NCBI GenBank assembly: GCA_030532895.1
Contig: JAUNKF010000005.1
Location: 24,780 to 88,779, forward strand
Origin: Lautropia sp.
Lineage (GTDB): Bacteria > Pseudomonadota > Gammaproteobacteria > Burkholderiales > Burkholderiaceae_E
Length of the DNA stretch: 64,000 nt
Direction of reading: 5' to 3'
Both the position numbers and the translations under genes were made by a program. Every line of letters begins with the position of its first letter. Position 1 is the first letter of the stretch. The notes under the pieces were generated by a model. The model made no database searches. It was not told the DNA's origin and worked only from the letters and a program-made list of their open reading frames with translations. Positions 4,629 through 47,988 of the stretch are shown one piece after another.

Positions 4629-5963
4629 ATGGAAACCGAGTACAAGACGCCACCGGAAAAGTTCACCGCTTTTCTCAAGCGGCAGAAGATGATCTTCATC
4701 GTCGCCTTTTTGGGCTATGTCTGCGCTTACCTCGTGCGCAACAACTTCAAGCTGATGTCGAAGTCCATCATGATCAGCAACGGCTGGGAGAAGGACGACA
4801 TCGCCATGCTGCTCTCCTGCCTCACCGTCTCCTACGGGCTGGCCAAGTTCTACATGGGCGCGCTGGGTGACAAGGTGAGCCTGCGCAAGCTCTTTTCGTT
4901 GTGTCTGGCAGCCAGCGCCATCATCTGCATCATCATCGGTTTCTATCACACTTCGATTGCGGCGCTTGCCGTGTTGCTGATCCTGTGTGGTGTCGTGCAA
5001 GGGGCGTTGGCGCCTGCTTCGCAGAACATGATCGCCAACTACTACCCCAACCGCACGCGTGGTGCCGCCATTGCGGGCTGGAACATCTCGCAAAACCTTG
5101 GCTCGGCCCTGTTGCCGATGATGATCGCCGGCATGACGACGCTGGGCTGGATCGTGCCGAACACTGATCATGTGCTGGCCGCCTTCATCGTGCCGGCGGG
5201 ACTGGTGCTGGCCTTTGCTGCTTTCTGCTGGAAATACGGGGGCGACAAGCCCGAGAAGGAAGGGCTGGATTCGTTGCGCCAGATGTATGGCGAGGGTGGT
5301 GAATCGAACGTGGCGAGCGAAGAAGAAAAAGCCTCGCTTACGTATTGGCAGCTGATCTGGAAGTACGTCTTCTGCAACCCGGCCCTGCTGCTGGTGGCGG
5401 CCGTCAACGTGGCGCTTTACTTCATCCGTTTCGGCGTGGAGGACTGGATGCCGATCTATCTGCACGAAGTGGCCAAGATGGAAGACGCCCACGCTCAGAT
5501 GGCGATCTCGGTGCTGGAGTGGGTGGCCATTCCCGGCTCGTTGGTCTTTGCGTGGCTTGCGGCCAAATACCCGAACAAGATGGCGAAAATCGGTGCCATT
5601 GGCCTCTTCGTGATGGCGGGCGTCGTGTTCGCCTATGAAGAAATCACGGCGTCGGGCGCGCCGAATTATGCGCTGATGCTGGTGGTCTGCGGCGTGCTGG
5701 GCGCGCTCATCTATGGCCCGCAGCTGATCGTCAACATTCTCACGATCAACTTCGTGCCGCTGAAGGTGGCGGGCACGGCCATTGGCTTTGTCGGCGTCAC
5801 GGCCTACCTCATCGGCAACATGGGTGCCAACTGGGTCATGCCGATCGTGGCCGACAACTTTGGCTGGTTCTGGTCATACGTGGTGGTGGCCGCGCTCTCG
5901 GTCTTTGCCGCCGTTGGCTACCTGGTGCTCGCGAAGCGCGAGGCTGAAGTCATCAAGGCTTGA
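4629..5963 (+). CDS. MFS organophosphate:phosphate antiporter (GlpT/UhpT/PgtP family)
   Basis: The protein contains YLVRNNFKLMSKS...LSCLTVSYGLAKFYMGALGDK, which matches the GlpT/UhpT N-terminal signature (YLVRKNFALAMPYL...SIAYGFSKFIMGSVSD). It has about 12 predicted transmembrane helices and high GC3. The ORF track starts at 4524, but the likely start is METEYKTPPEK at 4629. Confidence 0.8.
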   Translation: METEYKTPPEKFTAFLKRQKMIFIVAFLGYVCAYLVRNNFKLMSKSIMISNGWEKDDIAMLLSCLTVSYGLAKFYMGALGDKVSLRKLFSLCLAASAIICIIIGFYHTSIAALAVLLILCGVVQGALAPASQNMIANYYPNRTRGAAIAGWNISQNLGSALLPMMIAGMTTLGWIVPNTDHVLAAFIVPAGLVLAFAAFCWKYGGDKPEKEGLDSLRQMYGEGGESNVASEEEKASLTYWQLIWKYVFCNPALLLVAAVNVALYFIRFGVEDWMPIYLHEVAKMEDAHAQMAISVLEWVAIPGSLVFAWLAAKYPNKMAKIGAIGLFVMAGVVFAYEEITASGAPNYALMLVVCGVLGALIYGPQLIVNILTINFVPLKVAGTAIGFVGVTAYLIGNMGANWVMPIVADNFGWFWSYVVVAALSVFAAVGYLVLAKREAEVIKA

Positions 5964-6027
5964 GTGAATGGCGGTTTTCCCTGCCCCGTTGGTTGTTGAT
6001 GGCGGGGTGGGGTACGATAAAGTGTGA

Positions 6028-6303
6028 CTCGAACGAACGCGGGAGCAGGATGCCGACAAGGCGCAGGAGCTGGAGCGTTGGTTGGATCAGTTGGCATCCA
6101 GTTACAACGTGCTGGCGATGGATGCGCGTGTTTTTCGTCGATGGGCTAGATTGATGCATCGCCGGTCAGACACCCTGTATGAGGATGCCATGATCGCTGC
6201 GACGGCTCAGGAGCATGGGCTGACAGTGGTAACGCGCAATGTAACGGATTTCAGGCAATTGGGTGTGGATGTCTTCAATCCGTTTCAGACGGGTCGAGCC
6301 TGA
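6028..6303 (+). pseudogene. VapC/PIN-domain toxin remnant (C-terminal part only)
   Basis: The frame is open from the TGA at 6025 and reads ...ERWLDQLASSYNVLAMDARVFRRWARLMHRRSDTLYEDAMIAATAQEHGLTVVTRNVTDFRQLGVDVFNPFQ. This matches VapC C-termini (DAMIAATAL.HGLTLVTRN..DF..IPGL.L.NPW). It lacks the N-terminal PIN motif with the first catalytic Asp (about 40 aa) and about 40 aa of the middle, so the frame is only ~90 codons against ~130 for an intact VapC. The track ORF 6082..6303 uses a TTG start. Confidence 0.5.
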
Positions 6304-7193: not shown

Positions 7194-7805
7194 ATGCTTT
7201 CAACCCCCTGGCTGGTTTTCATCCTCAGTTGCATCGGCTTTGGTTTCATTCCTGGGCCGGCCATGCTGCAGACCATCTCCGTCACCTGGCAGGGCGGTAG
7301 ACGGGCTGGGGTGATGGCTGCACTGGGCATTCTGTTCGGCGGGGTTTTTCAGGTGGTGATCGTCGCGTTGGGCGCGGCTGCGTTGTTGAAAGCCTCACCG
7401 GCTGCCTATGGCGTCATGAAGGCGGCCGGCGGTGCTTACCTGATCTGGCTGGGCATTCAGCGGATGTCGGCCCCCATCGTGATCGAGGCGTCTGCCGGGC
7501 TGTCTCGTCAGATCCTGTGGTCGAGCGCGTTGGTCGAGGCCACCAATCCGAAATCGGCCCTGTTTTATTTGTCCTTTTTGCTGCCCTTCAGCGATCCGGG
7601 CGCATCGCTCGCCGTGGGCTGGCAGTTGTTGGGATTGGGGATGGCAGCCAATGTGCTGTTTTCAGTGGCCGACCTCCTGATCGTGCTGATGGCCCACCCC
7701 TTGCGGGCACGCCTGTTGGCGGGCGGTTCGGGCTATCGCTGGGCACAGCGGGTGGCGGGCCTGCTCTTCATCCTGATGGGGGTGTTTGCTATTCTGTCGG
7801 ATTGA
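7194..7805 (+). CDS. LysE/RhtB family amino acid exporter
   Basis: 203 aa. N-terminus LVFILSCIGFGFIPGPAML..., six TM helices and the family-typical KAAGGAYLIWLG. Confidence 0.85.
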   Translation: MLSTPWLVFILSCIGFGFIPGPAMLQTISVTWQGGRRAGVMAALGILFGGVFQVVIVALGAAALLKASPAAYGVMKAAGGAYLIWLGIQRMSAPIVIEASAGLSRQILWSSALVEATNPKSALFYLSFLLPFSDPGASLAVGWQLLGLGMAANVLFSVADLLIVLMAHPLRARLLAGGSGYRWAQRVAGLLFILMGVFAILSD

Positions 7806-7859
7806 GCACCGCAGACGCCTGAGACACTTTTGGCGTGGTGATGAACCCTGAATACCCCC

Positions 7860-8069
7860 ATGAACCGTGATGCCCTGATCCAGATGCTGAGGGCGGCCTC
7901 CACGGTCATGCAATACCAGATCATCACGCGCGGGGAACGCTGATGGTCTGTTGGCTTGCCGGTTGAGCTGTTCGAGTTGTTCGTGCTGTCTGAAAAAATG
8001 GATCTGGACGAGGCCCGTGCCGGCCTGTTGCAAGATATCCGTGAGCGAGGCAATGTGTATGGCGGATGA
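7860..8069 (+). pseudogene. MntA-like nucleotidyltransferase antitoxin remnant with an in-frame stop and internal deletion
   Basis: In a single frame, MNRDALIQMLRAASTVMQYQIITRGER is followed by a TGA at 7941..7943 and then WSVGLPVELFELFVLSEKMDLDEARAGLLQDIRERGNVYGG. The ends resemble the MntA N-terminus (..I..L.......L.LFGS.ARG) and C-terminus (.VDLV...........I...G..IY). The GSxARG and DxD catalytic core is missing. The total is 70 codons against about 95-140 for an intact MntA. It overlaps the hepT start by 11 nt, a typical TA arrangement. Confidence 0.4.
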
Positions 8070-8499
8070 TGTGTTGCTGAACAAGGCGGCGGTCATCGAG
8101 CGTTGTGTGCGCCGGGTGCGCGAGGCGTATGCAGACGACCCGGACGGTTTCTCCGTGAGCTTCGATCGGCAGGATGTTGCCATTCTCAATGTGCTGCGGG
8201 CCTGCCAGGCCGTGCTCGATGTCGGGCAACATCTGGTGCGTCGAGAGCGACTCGGTCTGCCACAAAGTGCGCGGGATGTATTCGGGATACTGGCAAAAGC
8301 AGGCTGGATTGAACCCTCACTGGCGGAGGCGATGAAACGAATGGCGGGGTTTCGGAACATCGCCGTGCATGATGATCAAGCCATACAGTTCCCGATGCTG
8401 CTCAACATCATTCAGCATCATCTGGATGAGTTTCTGCAATTCAACCGGCAGATTCTGGCCTTTGACGGGGCGGCAGCGAAAGGCGAGCAAGCGCCTTGA
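8059..8499 (+). CDS. hepT: HepT-like toxin (DUF86/HEPN, type VII TA toxin family), 146 aa
   Basis: MADDVLLNKAAVIERCVRRVREAYADD...QDVAILNVLRACQAVLDVGQHL matches the DUF86 N-terminus. The HEPN R-x4-H motif is present as GFRNIAVHDD, but the Tyr of the canonical Rx4HxY is replaced by Asp. The ORF track starts at an upstream TTG (7951); the ATG at 8059 matches the family start. Confidence 0.8.
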   Translation: MADDVLLNKAAVIERCVRRVREAYADDPDGFSVSFDRQDVAILNVLRACQAVLDVGQHLVRRERLGLPQSARDVFGILAKAGWIEPSLAEAMKRMAGFRNIAVHDDQAIQFPMLLNIIQHHLDEFLQFNRQILAFDGAAAKGEQAP

Positions 8500-8671
8500 T
8501 GAAAGAGCCTTGTTGGCCGGTCGTGTTGTGGCGAGTGTTGATTACAGACGCTGTGGATGAGGAGATTGGCTCAGTAGAAGGTGCTTTTTAAGGATGCTCG
8601 GAACAAGTCCCGCGAGGCATGCACCCGTTCCGAGGATTCGGCGTCCGCGTGGACCTGTTCTGTGTATCCTT

Positions 8672-8716
8672 AAGGGGGCGAGAGGTGGGGCGCCCTGCCA
8701 GAAAAGGCGCCCCCTT
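8672..8716. terminator. GC-rich nested hairpin between the hepT and ADH-fragment 3' ends (possible bidirectional terminator)
   Basis: AAGGGGGCG...CGCCCCCTT forms an outer 9-bp stem, and GGGGCGCC..GGCGCCCC forms an inner stem. It lies 170 nt after the hepT stop and 10 nt after the minus-strand ADH fragment stop. It has no clean U-tract. Confidence 0.25.
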
Positions 8717-8726
8717 ATTGCTCAGT

Positions 8727-8966
8727 TCAGTTTGGTGACACCAGAATCTTCACCTGGCTTTTTTCTCGAACCAGCGCCTCGAATCCTTCATCGACGATGC
8801 TGGCAAGCGGAATGCGCTTGGTCACGAGTTTGTCTTTGGAAAAATAGCCCTGCTCCATCAGCTTCAGCACGGCCGGGAAGATGTCTCGGTAGGCGATGAT
8901 GCCTTTCAACGTCTTTTCCTTGATGACGATCTCGTTCGGGTGAATCGAGGCTTCGTTCTCCCAGAT
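8727..8966 (-). pseudogene. Zn-dependent alcohol dehydrogenase (MDR family) C-terminal fragment, about 80 codons
   Basis: IWENEASIHPNEIVIKEKTLKGIIAYRDIFPAVLKLMEQGYFSKDKLVTKRIPLASIVDEGFEALVREKSQVKILVSPN matches the C-terminus of Zn-ADH/sorbitol dehydrogenase-type enzymes. The frame is closed upstream by a stop at 8967..8969. The roughly 270 N-terminal residues are absent, and the Fic gene occupies that position. Confidence 0.6.
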
Positions 8967-9002: not shown

Positions 9003-9033
9003 CAGCCATCAGCCATCAGCCATCAATCATCAG
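9003..9033. repeat. Tandem heptamer CAGCCAT x3 + CAATCAT + CAG at the Fic / ADH-fragment junction
   Basis: Read directly from the sequence as GTCAGCCATCAGCCATCAGCCATCAATCATCAG. It contains the Fic stop codon and last codons. Confidence 0.6.
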
Positions 9034-10192
9034 TCGTTTCAAGATTCACTTCATAAGCCGTGCTTCGCCCGCCGCCGGCGGCTTTGCGCAACATGCCAAG
9101 CGCCAACAGCCTGTTGATGTCGCGCAGCGCCGTGTCGGGGGAGCAGCGGCAGATGTTGGCCCAGCGGCTGCTGGTCATCCGGCCGTCGAAGCCATCCAGC
9201 AAGCGGTTCAACACTTTTTGCTGGCGTGCATTCAAGGGCGTGCCGGCCCATTGTTGCCAGAAGCGCGCTTTTGCCAACACGGCATCCAGTGTGCGCTCGG
9301 CTTGCACGATAGCATCATGCAGGGCGCGCAGGAACCAGTGGAGCCAGTCGTTCACATCCAATGTGCCCTTTTGTGTGCGTTCCAGGATCTGGTAATACTG
9401 CTTGCGTTCTCGCTGGATTTGCGCCGACAGGCTGTAAAAGCGTTGGGAGCTGCCATCGGCTCGTGCCAGGAAGAGGTCGCTGATGGCGCGGGCGATGCGT
9501 CCATTGCCGTCATCAAAGGGATGTAGCGTGATGAACCAGAGATGCGCCAGCGCCGCCCTGATCAGCTCGGGTTCGGTGGAGGGGCCATTGGCCCATGCCA
9601 GAAAGCGTGCCATTTCCTTGGGCAGATGGCTGGCCGGTGGTGCCTGAAAATGTATCCGCCGCCGATGAACCGGCCCCGAGACGACCTGCATCGGGCCTTG
9701 GCTGTCAGTCCGCCAGCAGCCGACCTCGATCCGGTTCAAGCCGGAATAACCGGTAGGAAACAGGGCGGCTTGCCAGCCAAACAAACGCGCTGAGCTGAGG
9801 GGCTGCCGGGCATGGTGTGTGGCATCCAGCACCATGTCCACCACGCCGTCCACATGGCGGTCGGCGGGAGCACTGGCGCCGATGTCCACGCCCAGCCGAC
9901 GTGCCACGGATGAGCGTACCGAGGCCACGTCCAGGTGTTCGTTCTCGATCTTGCTGGTGTCGAGCACATCCTGTGTCAGGGCGGCAAGGCTCGCCTGATC
10001 GCGTAGCGTCATGCCGACATCGGCCAGGCGCCCCAGCAGCCGGCCTTGCGCCTGGCTTGCCGCCGCCAGTGGCGTGGCCAGTGCCCCCGCATCGTATGTC
10101 CAGCCAGGATGATCAGCCTGTTGCCAGGCAGGCAGTTGCCAGACCCAGTTGTAATCTCCGCATATCATGCGGAGATTAGACGCGCTATTCAC
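9023..10192 (-). CDS. fic: Fic family protein (class II, with cis inhibitory helix), 389 aa
   Basis: Has the Fic motif HPFDDGNGRIARA (HPFx[DE]GNGR), an N-terminal inhibitory motif TSKIEN matching [ST]xxxE[GN], and a C-terminal wHTH-like tail. The start is GTG. Confidence 0.9.
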   Translation of the reverse strand: MNSASNLRMICGDYNWVWQLPAWQQADHPGWTYDAGALATPLAAASQAQGRLLGRLADVGMTLRDQASLAALTQDVLDTSKIENEHLDVASVRSSVARRLGVDIGASAPADRHVDGVVDMVLDATHHARQPLSSARLFGWQAALFPTGYSGLNRIEVGCWRTDSQGPMQVVSGPVHRRRIHFQAPPASHLPKEMARFLAWANGPSTEPELIRAALAHLWFITLHPFDDGNGRIARAISDLFLARADGSSQRFYSLSAQIQRERKQYYQILERTQKGTLDVNDWLHWFLRALHDAIVQAERTLDAVLAKARFWQQWAGTPLNARQQKVLNRLLDGFDGRMTSSRWANICRCSPDTALRDINRLLALGMLRKAAGGGRSTAYEVNLETTDD

Positions 10193-45457: not shown

Positions 45458-45874
45458 ATGATTGCGCTCCTGATCATTGCCCACCAGCCGCTGGCCAGCG
45501 CGTTGCTGGATTGTTGTCGTCATGTCTATCAGGGGCTGCCTGCGCAACTGGCGGCGCTTGACATCATGCCGGATGAGGACCCGGATCAGGCGCTGCAGGG
45601 CGCGAACGCGCTGGCTGGCCGGATGAACGATGGCAGCGGCTTGGTGGTGCTGACCGATCTGTACGGTGCCACGCCTGCCCGGATTGCGGTGCGGCTGGCC
45701 GATGCCGGCCGGGTCAGTGTCCTGTATGGTGTGAATCTGCCGATATTGCTGAAATTGATCAACTACCGGGCCAGTCTGCCGCTCGATGAGCTGGTGGCGT
45801 TGGTCTTGCGTGATCCTGCTGCCGGCATCGGGCTGGTTGACACCCCGCTTTCCACCCAGTGTGGGGGCGACTGA
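45458..45874 (+). CDS. PTS EIIA component, mannose/fructose class
   Basis: MIALLIIAHQPLASALLDCCRHV...LVVLTDLYGATP matches EIIA-Man (active His in IAHxxLA). It occupies the conserved gshB-EIIA-ptsH-ptsI position seen in betaproteobacteria. Confidence 0.8.
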   Translation: MIALLIIAHQPLASALLDCCRHVYQGLPAQLAALDIMPDEDPDQALQGANALAGRMNDGSGLVVLTDLYGATPARIAVRLADAGRVSVLYGVNLPILLKLINYRASLPLDELVALVLRDPAAGIGLVDTPLSTQCGGD

Positions 45875-45940
45875 GCGCATGGCATGAGCCTGGCCGGGCC
45901 TGTGTCTGCCGCCCTTCCCAATCACTCCCTGAGAGGACTC

Positions 45941-46228
45941 ATGAAAACAGCAGAGGTGAAGATCGTCAACCGCCTGGGGATGCATGCCCGCCCGTCGGCG
46001 GCTCTGACACAGACGGCCACGCGCTTTCAGAGCGGTGTCTGGCTGACGAAAGGGGGCGGTGGCCGGCGGGTCAACGGCAAGAGCATCATGGGCGTGATGA
46101 TGCTGGCGGCCGCCTGTGGCAACACCTTGCTGATCGAGGTGGACGGGGTGGATGAGGATGCTGCCCTGGAAGCGTTGACGGCGCTGGTGGCCTCAGGCTT
46201 CGGGGAAGAGATCGCAGGGGAAGGTTGA
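45941..46228 (+). CDS. ptsH: Phosphocarrier protein HPr
   Basis: MKTAEVKIVNRLGMHARPSAALTQTA (His15 context GMHARP) and Ser46-like GKSIMGVMML. 95 aa. The track ORF has a 19-aa upstream extension. Confidence 0.9.
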   Translation: MKTAEVKIVNRLGMHARPSAALTQTATRFQSGVWLTKGGGGRRVNGKSIMGVMMLAAACGNTLLIEVDGVDEDAALEALTALVASGFGEEIAGEG

Positions 46229-47988
46229 TGCAGAGGCTGACAGGTTCACCCGTTGGTGGTGGGGTGGTGCTGGGACGAGCCTGCGTGCTGGAAACCGGCC
46301 TCATCGACGTGCCGCGCTTTCAGATTGGGCCAGATGATGTCGAGGCCGAGACCGAGCGTCTGCGCCGGGCGGGGGAGCGCGTCAATGCGGAGCTGCAAGC
46401 GGTGGCCGAGCAGTTGCCGCCCGATGCGCCGGCTGAGGCCAAGGCGTTGCTCGACGTACAGCAGATGTTGTTGCATGATCCAGCGCTTTTCGAGGCGGCG
46501 TGCGAGAAGGTGCGCGCCTCGCTCGTCAATGTGGAGTGGGCCATCTCCGACATGGCCGAAGAGCTGGCTGCGCAGTTTCGGGCCATCGATGATCCTTATC
46601 TGAAGGAGCGTGGGCGCGATGTCGAGCAGGTGGCCGAGCGTGTGTTGAAGGCACTGGCAGGCACGTCGCTGTCGGTGCCGCCACGGGAATCGGGTGAGCC
46701 GCTGATTTTCGTGGCGCAGGATCTTCAGCCGGCCGACATGCTGCAGATCAAGGGGGCGCGTGGCTTCGTCTTCGAGCGAGGGGGCACCCACTCGCACACG
46801 GCCATTCTCGCGCGCAGCCTGAAGGTGGCGGCGGTGGTGGGCGTGCCAGGCGCATCGCTGGCCATTCAGGATGGCGATGTGCTGATTCTGGATGGTGATG
46901 CGGGTGAGGTGATCGTCTCGCCGGATGAGGCCACGCTGTTCCAGTACCGGGATCGTCAGCGTCAGGCCGCCGAGGAAGAGCGCCATCTGGCCAGTCTGGC
47001 GGCTGTGCGCTGCGTGACACGCGATGGTCAGGCCGTGAGCTTGCTCGCCAACATCGAGCAGCCCGAGGAGGCGCATGATGCGTTGCGGCAGGGGGCCGAG
47101 GGGGTGGGGCTTTTCCGTTCCGAGTTCCTGTTTCTGAACCGGGCCGATCTGCCCGATGAGGAGGAACAGTACCGGGCCTACCGGGATGCCGTGCTGGCGA
47201 TGCAGGGGCGCCCGGTGACGATTCGCACGATCGATGTGGGGGCCGACAAGGTGCTGCCTGCCCAAGCGCTGATCCCTGGTGATGTGTCGGTGCTGGGTCG
47301 ACGGGCCATCCGTTTCAGTCTGGCCGAGCCGGAGATGTTCCTCGTGCAGTTGCGTGCCTTGCTGCGGGCCTCGGCGCATGGGCCGGTGCAGATCCTGCTG
47401 CCGATGCTCTCTCAGGTGCAGGAGGTGGACGATGCGTTGCAGTTGCTCGCCCAGGCGCGTGATCAGCTGCGAGGGCGGGGTGAGGTGGTGGCCGATCATG
47501 TGCCGGTGGGCGGCATGGTCGAAGTGCCGGCGGCAGCCTTGTCGGCGGGGGCCTTTGCCCGCAAGCTGGATTTTCTGGCCATCGGCACGAATGACCTGGT
47601 GCAATATACGCTGGCCATCGACCGCACCGATTACCGGATCTCGCACCTCTACGATGAGTTTCACCCGGCCGTGCTGCGTCTGATCGCGCTCACGATCCGG
47701 GCAGCACGCAAGGCCGGCAAGCCTGTCTGCCTGTGTGGAGAGATGGCGGGCGAAACCAGTGCCACGCGGATGCTGTTGGGCATGGGGTTGCGAACCTTTT
47801 CGATGTTGCCCTCTCGCCTGTTGCGGGTGAAGCGGGTGGTGCTGTCGGCCGATGCGGGTCAGTTGAGGCCGAAGGTGCGTCGCTTGCTGGTGCAGGATGA
47901 TCTGGCGCTGGTGCGGGCGAATCTGCTTGCACTGGACGTGGAGGTCGACAGTTTGCCGCCTGTGTCCGCGGGCCGTCAGCGCGGTTGA
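46225..47988 (+). CDS. ptsI: Phosphoenolpyruvate-protein phosphotransferase (Enzyme I)
   Basis: [21 protein letters not shown] (active His), PEP-utilizing C-terminal domain ...[16 protein letters not shown]. 587 aa. Confidence 0.95.

What the first reader, a model, noticed from the sequence alone, without database searches (positions are those of the whole stretch)
7860..8499. Intact HepT (HEPN) toxin beside a broken MntA antitoxin, with the AMPylation-site Tyr of Rx4HxY replaced by Asp
hepT (146 aa) looks complete and keeps the R-x4-H HEPN motif (RNIAVH). The upstream mntA frame has an in-frame TGA after 27 codons and lacks the GSxARG/DxD nucleotidyltransferase core (70 codons in total). In characterised HepT/MntA pairs the antitoxin neutralises the toxin by poly-AMPylating the Tyr of RX4HXY. 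Here that residue is Asp (HDD). Either this HepT is an inactivated toxin that no longer needs its antitoxin, or it is neutralised or used in a non-canonical way. An apparently orphan HEPN RNase retained intact is worth testing.
Basis: partly seen in the sequence, partly recalled or inferred. Interest (0 to 1): 0.6.

Follow-up and report, generated by a model that had tools for sequence, protein, structure and literature searches.

The report
Decaying HepT/MntA toxin-antitoxin locus
This is a dying toxin-antitoxin gene pair: the antitoxin is wrecked, and the toxin survives with an Asp in place of the Tyr the antitoxin normally modifies, a change that has arisen many times in this family and probably disarms the toxin.

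Summary
hepT (8059-8499, 146 aa) is a strong HepT family member (NCBIfam 141.8 bits) and about half-identical to the characterised Shewanella oneidensis HepT. Its D106 aligns without gaps to the AMPylated Y104.

The upstream frame (7860-8069) is an mntA pseudogene. A 186-nt in-frame deletion removes the whole GSX10DXD core, and a TGG->TGA nonsense codon lies at 7941.

New context:
- A syntenic sister contig (L081) also has Asp and an even larger mntA deletion, plus R99W and H58Y in HepT. The decay is therefore real and Y->D came first.
- Y->D is not unique. It occurs in about 2.5-4% of family members and arose about 13-16 times independently (16 changes at the site, one of them to Asn), always as shallow tips. 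The conservative changes to Phe or His are never seen.
- Nine other Asp lineages all keep a full-length MntA with its catalytic motif.

Best reading: toxin-first decay. Asp removes the AMP acceptor and most likely disarms the RNase, after which MntA became dispensable and eroded. This is inferred, not shown.

The locus itself is ordinary. The recurrent Tyr-to-Asp substitution is a modest, testable novelty.

The parts
7860..8069 (+). mntA pseudogene remnant (70 codons). It keeps the N-terminal 10 codons, joined directly to the C-terminal ~59 codons of MntA. The GSX10DXD nucleotidyltransferase core is missing.
   Evidence: Translation. NF047752 weak hit to profile positions 61-106. tblastn 83% identity to the C-terminal part of L084 MntA, E 2e-28, and DNA alignment showing a 186-nt gap.
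7884..7890 (+). Junction of the 186-nt (62-codon) in-frame deletion. Intact relatives have short CCTGCG-like repeats on either side of the deleted stretch.
   Evidence: MAFFT alignment of window 7830-8069 with mntA of L084 and L082.
7941..7943 (+). TGA nonsense codon where relatives have TGG, the first Trp of the conserved ERWW.
8047..8050 (+). GAGG, a possible Shine-Dalgarno sequence 8 nt upstream of the hepT ATG. It lies inside the mntA remnant.
   Evidence: Read directly from the sequence. Function is inferred only.
8059..8499 (+). hepT, a full-length ORF of 146 aa (HEPN/DUF86 RNase toxin family).
   Evidence: PF01934 85 bits; NF047751 141.8 bits. About half-identical to S. oneidensis HepT, E 3e-34. 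Identical protein P0001 is annotated in a Lautropia sp. MAG.
8353..8370 (+). R99-N-I-A-V-H104, the intact Rx4H catalytic motif.
   Evidence: R97 and H102 of SO_3166 are required for toxicity (PMC4621449).
8374..8376 (+). GAT = D106, at the position of the AMP-acceptor Tyr (Y104 of SO_3166). One T->G step from TAT.
   Evidence: Gapless alignment to 5YEP and 6M6U. Codon census.
8344..8346 (+). GCG = A96, where 97% of the family has Val. It is equivalent to SO_3166 V94, a position where a single substitution abolished toxicity.
   Evidence: Conservation analysis. PMC4621449.

Best explanation

Step 1 (inferred from phylogeny). In the common ancestor of this lineage and its syntenic sister L081, the acceptor Tyr codon changed TAY->GAY. 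Asp cannot be oligo-AMPylated. It also places a carboxylate two residues after the catalytic His. This most likely abolishes or strongly attenuates RNase toxicity.

Step 2 (shown). With the toxin harmless, MntA became dispensable. Here it was destroyed by a 186-nt deletion between short repeats, which removed the GSX10DXD core, and by a TGG->TGA nonsense mutation. In the sister lineage a larger deletion left only about 22 codons.

Step 3 (shown in the sister, incipient here). HepT itself accumulates damaging changes. L081 has R99W, H58Y and deltaS70. The window has V96A and I113M at positions that are 95-97% conserved.

The hepT ORF in the window is still open, probably because too little time has passed, not because it is needed.
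For: Identity of the parts
- HepT and the MntA remnant are both confirmed.

The decay is real and Asp came first
- The sister contig L081 comes from an independent sample and has the same flanking genes (the LysE gene's end upstream, the same dehydrogenase fragment downstream).
- It also has Asp, an independent and larger mntA deletion, and a dead catalytic Arg.

Why Asp probably disarms the toxin
- In S. oneidensis HepT, the closest characterised homologue, Y104A keeps full toxicity and blocks AMPylation (PMC4621449).
- In the same system, MntA binding alone does not neutralise HepT (PMC7641770).
- Y->F in Thermococcus cleftensis likewise impairs rescue.
- An acceptor-site variant that stayed toxic should therefore be lethal without MntA.

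Spectrum of natural substitutions at the site
- Asp occurs in about 13-16 independent shallow lineages (16 changes at the site by parsimony, one of them to Asn); Asn, Cys and Ser occur once each; Phe and His never.
- In the two less biased samples, 5 of 7 non-Tyr cases are Asp. The binomial probability is about 0.002 against equal use of the six missense neighbours of the Tyr codon.

Asp behaves like a knock-out allele
- In the codon-free scan, Asp variants (3 of 120) are about as frequent as catalytic His replacements (5 of 120).
- Asp variants never form deep clades. This is the pattern expected of a dead-end state.

Other loci show the same toxin-first order
- Nine other Asp lineages still have intact MntA.
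- L141 has HepT(D) frameshifted beside an intact MntA. L066 has a stop in HepT beside an intact MntA.
- No full-length RHY HepT in about 150 loci lacked an MntA with GSx..DxD.
Against: - No experiment shows that Y->D is non-toxic. Y104A is toxic, so loss of the hydroxyl alone is not enough. The argument rests on the charge of Asp and on population patterns.
- HepT keeps R99, N100 and H104. It also keeps the other residues at toxicity-critical positions: C16, H58, R72 and H120.
- dN/dS between the window and L081 hepT is 0.21 (dS 0.34), well below 1.
- Two Asp-Asp pairs with intact MntA show dN/dS of 0.06-0.12 for hepT and 0.08-0.11 for mntA. This suggests Asp variants can persist under purifying selection for some time, which a dead toxin would not predict.
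- The top-120 protein list is enriched for Asp because the query itself carries Asp. Only the pattern scan (3 of 120) and the genome set (2 of 80) give usable frequencies.
Confidence: 0.62

Rival explanations
1. HepT is inactive, but not because of Y106D. The Asp is a tolerated passenger. Toxicity was lost through another substitution, such as V96A or I113M, or through loss of expression. The mntA nonsense codon breaks translational coupling, and the promoter may be gone.
For: - V96 is Val in 97% of the family and equals SO_3166 V94, one of six positions where a single change abolished toxicity.
- The same position changed independently in L081 (to Met). V96A also accompanies Asp in P0060 and P0111.
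- No sigma-70-like promoter was found in 7600-8800.
Against: - This does not explain why Asp, and almost only Asp, recurs at the acceptor site in many lineages that keep V96 (15 of 19 Asp sequences).
- The V96A association is inflated by query bias.
- The promoter scan is a weak test in a GC-rich betaproteobacterium.
- Asp predates the window/L081 split, whereas position 96 differs between the two (Ala versus Met).
Confidence: 0.15
2. HepT(D) is still an active RNase that is kept for a purpose. It would be a variant controlled without AMPylation, for example by expression level, oligomeric state or another partner. It could then survive as a solo effector after MntA loss.
For: - The catalytic motif and the other critical residues are intact.
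- dN/dS is 0.21 here and 0.06-0.12 in Asp-Asp pairs that also keep MntA under constraint.
- Fused MNT-HEPN proteins show that HEPN activity can be held in check by oligomeric state without AMPylation (PMC13000451).
- The locus lies beside a SoFic-like defence gene.
Against: - Asp lineages are shallow tips with no deep clade.
- The only other member of this Asp clade has R99W, H58Y and a codon deletion.
- In the closest characterised system, MntA binding alone does not neutralise.
- There is no second MntA or HepT in the 64-kb window.
- Having only two lesions, both in mntA, is not significant evidence for retention of hepT.
Confidence: 0.15
3. The broken mntA is an assembly or sequencing artefact of a metagenome-assembled genome, and the real genome has an intact pair.
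For: The window matches a MAG (Lautropia sp.). A single G->A error could create the TGA.
Against: - The 186-nt deletion is in frame with a clean junction and is independent of the TGA.
- An independent assembly from another sample (L081) shows the same locus with mntA even more deleted.
- Even without the TGA, the product would lack the whole catalytic core.
Confidence: 0.03

Closest known systems
Shewanella oneidensis HepT/MntA (SO_3166/SO_3165), the type VII toxin-antitoxin prototype (PDB 5YEP, 6M6U, 7BXO; PMC4621449, PMC7641770)
   Same: - HepT matches at E 3e-34 and is about half-identical over residues 3-130.
- The core motif RNIAVH-D is identical.
- The residues at toxicity-critical positions (C15, H56, R70, H118 equivalents) are conserved.
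- The operon order is mntA then hepT, with overlapping stop and start.
   Different: - The acceptor Tyr104 is Asp106 here, so oligo-AMPylation at this site is impossible.
- MntA has lost its GSX10DXD core and carries a stop.
- The V94 equivalent is Ala.
Natural HepT(Asp)/MntA pairs found here, for example Rubrivivax benzoatilyticus JA2 (L003, motif HED) and metagenomic loci L084, L112, L190, L205-L210
   Same: They carry the same Tyr->Asp substitution by a single T->G change, in the same HepT subfamily (62-74% identity).
   Different: These all keep a full-length MntA with GSX10DXD. Only the window and its sister L081 have lost it.
Degenerate toxin-antitoxin loci in general (toxin-first inactivation followed by antitoxin loss)
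   Same: - An inactivating-type change in the toxin comes first, followed by deletion and nonsense in the antitoxin.
- The neighbourhood holds other remnants, including a truncated PIN/VapC.
   Different: The presumed inactivating change sits on the antitoxin's modification site and not on a catalytic residue. It recurs with unusual specificity for Asp.
Fused MNT-HEPN proteins (FhepTA) of Shewanella (PMC13000451)
   Same: They are a precedent for a HEPN toxin that stays silent without AMPylation (the Y240F and NTase-dead mutants were not activated).
   Different: In FhepTA, silencing is due to the covalently attached MNT domain blocking HEPN dimerisation. Here no MNT domain remains.

Membership tests
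HepT (HEPN/DUF86) RNase toxin family | Sequence match to PF01934 / NF047751 above the curated cutoff | tested here: met
   PF01934 85 bits (cutoff 23.5). NF047751 141.8 bits (cutoff 60), full profile length.
HepT (HEPN/DUF86) RNase toxin family | Rx4-6H catalytic motif with a polar residue after the Arg | tested here: met
   R99-N-I-A-V-H104, identical to RNIAVH of SO_3166.
Class I HepT/MntA type VII toxin-antitoxin system (as defined in PMC7641770) | Tyr of RX4HXY, the AMP acceptor | tested here: not met
   Asp106 aligns without gaps to Y104. 97% of family members have Tyr.
Class I HepT/MntA type VII toxin-antitoxin system (as defined in PMC7641770) | Adjacent MntA with the GSX10DXD nucleotidyltransferase motif | tested here: not met
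   The 62-codon deletion removes the motif and a TGA follows. NF047752 scores only 24 bits, below the cutoff of 60, over profile positions 61-106.
Class I HepT/MntA type VII toxin-antitoxin system (as defined in PMC7641770) | Two-gene operon, mntA upstream, stop and start overlapping | tested here: met
   The remnant's stop at 8067-8069 overlaps the hepT ATG at 8059, the same 11-nt overlap as in 80 relatives.
Class I HepT/MntA type VII toxin-antitoxin system (as defined in PMC7641770) | HepT toxicity and its neutralisation by MntA-dependent oligo-AMPylation | not testable with these tools
   Requires expression and toxicity assays and mass spectrometry.

The most novel reading that the evidence does not exclude
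Asp at the AMP-acceptor position is not just one of many knock-out mutations. It would be a specifically favoured 'self-neutralised' state of HepT: a carboxylate that stands in for the phosphodiester of AMP-Tyr at the composite active site. Evolution would reach it repeatedly (about 13-16 times in the sample) because it is the only single-nucleotide change at that codon that removes dependence on MntA without killing the cell. Alternatively, HepT(D) retains a selectable, MntA-independent activity. That would explain the low dN/dS in Asp-Asp pairs and the intact ORF here.
Probability: 0.2. Interest if true: 0.55.

Novelty: new variant of a known kind. Interest (0 to 1): 0.3.

Why it matters
The locus itself is an ordinary decaying toxin-antitoxin module and needs no special explanation.

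The comparative by-product has some value. In the family where neutralisation by oligo-AMPylation was discovered, the acceptor Tyr is replaced in a few per cent of natural members, almost always by Asp and never by Phe or His.

If Asp disarms HepT where Ala and Phe do not, that gives three things:
- a simple genetic handle on how the AMP chain blocks the active site, by charge rather than bulk;
- a rule for recognising dead HepT genes in annotation, since current motif scans for RX4HXY silently drop them;
- a worked example of the order of events in the death of a type VII module.

Tried and rejected
- **Pfam on the mntA remnant.** No NTP_transf_2 or Polbeta hit, only noise. The MntA identity had to be shown with NCBIfam and tblastn.
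- **Second-site changes in HepT accompanying Y->D.** None was consistent across 11 Asp/Tyr nearest-neighbour pairs.
- **V96A/Y106D association.** Nominally significant, p 0.003-0.015. Set aside because retrieval was biased by a query carrying both residues and by the M-[VA] requirement of the DNA pattern.
- **Second MntA or HepT in the window.** None found. The weak hit at 45866-46087 is antisense to PTS genes (HPr, EIIA) and is spurious.
- **Promoter and terminator scan of 7600-8800.** No promoter-like site and one weak terminator-like site inside the LysE gene. Uninformative.
- **Antisense ORFs across the locus** (7662-8360, 7924-8265 and 7733-8053, minus strand). No credible family match. 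They are GC-rich shadows.
- **PADLOC on HepT.** No hit.
- **GC profile.** No compositional island at the locus.
- **Literature search for Y104D, Y109D or a phosphomimetic HepT.** Nothing in the held library.
- **First crude MntA classification.** It labelled many loci 'defective' or 'none'. On inspection these were divergent but intact MntAs with GSx..DxD, or loci where both genes are decayed.
- **Structure prediction.** Not run. With about 50% identity to solved structures it would add nothing, and the tool returns no coordinates for judging Asp-Arg or Asp-His geometry.

Full report
**1. What is in the sequence**

The + strand of 7860-8499 holds two overlapping frames.

hepT
- The downstream frame, 8059-8499, encodes a 146-aa protein.
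- It matches Pfam PF01934 (HepT-like, 85 bits) and the NCBIfam equivalog NF047751 'type VII toxin-antitoxin system HepT family RNase toxin' over the whole profile (141.8 bits, cutoff 60).
- An identical protein is on record from a Lautropia sp. metagenome-assembled genome, on a 163-kb contig.
- A sequence search of the PDB puts it closest to the Shewanella oneidensis HepT, on which the oligo-AMPylation mechanism was worked out (5YEP, 6M6U, 7BXO; E 3e-34).
- The alignment has no gap around the motif. LRNIAVHDYQELNL aligns with FRNIAVHDDQAIQF, so D106 (GAT, 8374-8376) occupies the position of the acceptor Y104.
- R99, N100 and H104 are intact.

mntA remnant
- The upstream frame (7860-8069, 70 codons) reads MNRDALIQMLRAASTVMQYQIITRGER*WSVGLPVELFELFVLSEKMDLDEARAGLLQDIRERGNVYGG*.
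- Pfam sees nothing in it. NCBIfam MntA_antitoxin gives a sub-threshold hit confined to profile positions 61-106 of 106.
- Intact MntA proteins from relatives match its C-terminal 59 residues at 83% identity (E 2e-28).
- A DNA alignment with intact mntA genes of the nearest Tyr- and Asp-bearing relatives (L082, L084) shows one clean 186-nt gap. It runs from just after codon 9-10 to the conserved 'LRAAST'. It removes the whole GSX10DXD nucleotidyltransferase core and is flanked in the relatives by CCTGCG-like short repeats.
- The stop at 7941 is TGG->TGA in the conserved ERWW.
- The remnant's own stop overlaps the hepT start by 11 nt, as in intact operons.

**2. The decay is real and the Asp came first**

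The closest homologue (P0002, 86% identity) lies on a 1-kb contig from an unrelated sequencing run (L081).
- The contig is syntenic. The end of the same LysE-family gene lies upstream and the same dehydrogenase-like fragment lies downstream.
- In L081 only the last ~22 codons of mntA remain.
- Its HepT also has Asp at the acceptor site, together with R99W, H58Y, V96M and a one-codon deletion.
- Polarising the 21 differences between the two HepTs with outgroups assigns about 11 to the L081 branch and about 4 to the window branch.
- mntA loss is therefore not an assembly artefact. Y->D predates the split (dS 0.34). The sister shows where the window locus is heading.

**3. Y->D is a recurrent family polymorphism**

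Frequency
- Among the 120 best database homologues, 15 besides the query carry Asp at the acceptor position (13 HDD, one HED, and P0002 with R->W as well), and one has HDN.
- That list is enriched because the query itself carries Asp. I therefore scanned metagenome contigs with a degenerate DNA pattern that leaves the R, H and Y codons free.
- Of 120 matches, 108 are R-H-Y. Three have Y->D, one Y->C and one Y->S. Five have the catalytic His replaced (R, Q, N, Y, P) and two the Arg (I, K).
- In 80 genome loci, two carry Asp: Rubrivivax benzoatilyticus JA2, a cultured isolate, and a Sericytochromatia MAG.

Independent origins
- Nearest-neighbour analysis, and Fitch parsimony on a UPGMA tree of 278 distinct sequences, give about 16 independent changes at this site (15 to Asp and one to Asn).
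- Asp variants are typically 93-98% identical to a Tyr-bearing neighbour and never form a deep clade. The window plus L081 is the deepest.
- Asp codons are GAT and GAC in a 7:7 ratio, mirroring TAT and TAC at 89:84. Each event is therefore a single T->G change.
- Phe and His, the conservative and transition-accessible alternatives, were never seen.

**4. Relation to MntA**

- Every other Asp lineage for which upstream DNA was available keeps a full-length MntA with GSX10DXD. These are L003, L031, L084, L112, L141, L190, L205/206, L207/208 and L209/210.
- Conversely, no full-length R-H-Y HepT in about 150 loci lacked an MntA carrying the motif. The loci my first crude classifier flagged turned out to have divergent but intact MntAs, or to be decayed in both genes.
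- Other decay stages are visible. L141 has HepT(D) frameshifted beside an intact MntA. L066 has a HepT stop beside an intact MntA. L202 has a deletion fusing the MntA N-terminus to the HepT C-terminus. L091 has stops in both genes.

**5. Mechanistic reading**

In S. oneidensis:
- R97G and H102A abolish toxicity, but Y104A does not (PMC4621449).
- Y104A blocks AMPylation and impairs neutralisation.
- MntA catalytic mutants still bind HepT but fail to neutralise it, so binding is not sufficient (PMC7641770).
- Y->F behaves likewise in Thermococcus cleftensis.

A variant that merely loses the hydroxyl should therefore be an un-neutralisable toxin and be purged. This fits the absence of Phe and His in nature. 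Asp is tolerated repeatedly, and here it is tolerated without any antitoxin. The simplest inference is that Asp, unlike Ala or Phe, disarms the RNase, plausibly through its negative charge beside the Rx4H site.

Once the toxin is harmless, MntA is free to decay. That is what the window and L081 show. This chain is inferred and no step has been tested biochemically.

**6. What does not fit neatly**

- dN/dS between the window and L081 hepT is 0.21, higher than the 0.12-0.14 seen between intact relatives but far from 1.
- Two Asp-Asp pairs with intact MntA give 0.06-0.12 for hepT and 0.08-0.11 for mntA.
- If Asp was ancestral to those pairs, HepT(D)/MntA modules persist under purifying selection for a while. 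A dead toxin would not predict this. It keeps open the reading that HepT(D) retains some selectable activity.
- The window HepT also departs from the family at V96 (Ala) and I113 (Met). V96 is 97% Val and equals SO_3166 V94, a position where a single change abolished toxicity. Inactivation by another route cannot be excluded.
- The intact hepT ORF is not itself evidence of retention. With two lesions in an operon of two similar-sized genes, both falling in mntA has a probability of about 0.23.

**7. Surroundings**

- There is no other MntA or HepT in the 64 kb.
- GC content shows no island.
- Antisense ORFs across the locus have no family support.
- The neighbourhood is a patch of remnants: a 5'-truncated PIN/VapC fragment at 6082-6303, and a 3' fragment of a dehydrogenase-like gene at 8727-~8960 on the minus strand.
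- That fragment abuts a DUF4172-Fic gene (9023-10192, minus strand) that matches the PADLOC SoFic defence model at E 4e-46.

**8. Verdict**

This is a real, correctly described, but essentially ordinary object: a decaying type VII HepT/MntA module in a Lautropia-like genome.
- It belongs to the HepT family by sequence.
- It fails two defining features of a functional class I HepT/MntA system, the acceptor Tyr and the GSX10DXD partner.
- The one observation that goes beyond routine is family-wide and not local: the recurrent, Asp-specific replacement of the AMP-acceptor Tyr.
- I found no report of this in the searchable literature. It leads to a cheap, decisive experiment, comparing Y104D with Y104A.

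Noticed in passing
window 6082-6303 (+), with upstream frame 5962-6081: A 5'-truncated PIN-domain (VapC-like) toxin fragment. It matches Pfam PIN profile positions 62-116 of 120 only. The upstream frame has in-frame stops, and there is no VapB-like partner. This is a second decayed toxin-antitoxin remnant 1.8 kb from the hepT locus.
   Followed up: partly
window 9023-10192 (-): A 389-aa DUF4172 + Fic protein that matches the PADLOC SoFic anti-phage defence model (E 4e-46). It lies convergent to hepT, about 520 nt away. It is an AMPylating enzyme by family, but nothing links it to HepT.
   Followed up: partly
window 8727-~8960 (-); L081 816-1028: A ~78-codon 3' fragment of a dehydrogenase-like gene (...KILVSPN*). 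It has no Pfam hit and stops upstream. It is conserved in the sister contig L081 and is apparently cut off by the Fic gene.
   Followed up: partly
HepT position 96 (window 8344-8346); P0060, P0111, L081: V96 is Val in 97% of the family and equals the toxicity-critical V94 of SO_3166. It is Ala in three Asp-variant HepTs (the window, P0060, P0111) and Met in L081. The nominal association with Y106D has p 0.003-0.015, but retrieval was biased by the query.
   Followed up: partly
L141 4319-5026; L202 461-830; L188 3283-4001; L091; L066 3001-3408: Other natural decay stages of HepT/MntA modules. L141: HepT(D) frameshifted with intact MntA. L202: a deletion fusing MntA residues 10-54 to HepT residues 67-145, with H->P. 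L188: HepT H->Y plus a frameshift. L091: both genes carry stops. L066: a HepT stop with intact MntA.
   Followed up: partly
L097, L143, L145 (metagenome loci): Full-length HepT proteins with the catalytic His replaced (H->R, H->Q, H->N) beside intact MntA genes. In the codon-free scan, about 10% of this HepT group had a change in R, H or Y of the motif.
   Followed up: partly
L209 1616-2011 (MntA): The MntA partnered with an Asp-variant HepT has SDWDLAV where relatives have the usual SDLDLAV. DxD is kept, with an unusual Trp between the two aspartates.
   Followed up: no
window 45458-47988 (+): A PTS gene cluster (EIIA-like, HPr, PtsI). A weak HepT tblastn hit at 45866-46087 lies antisense to it and is spurious.
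   Followed up: yes
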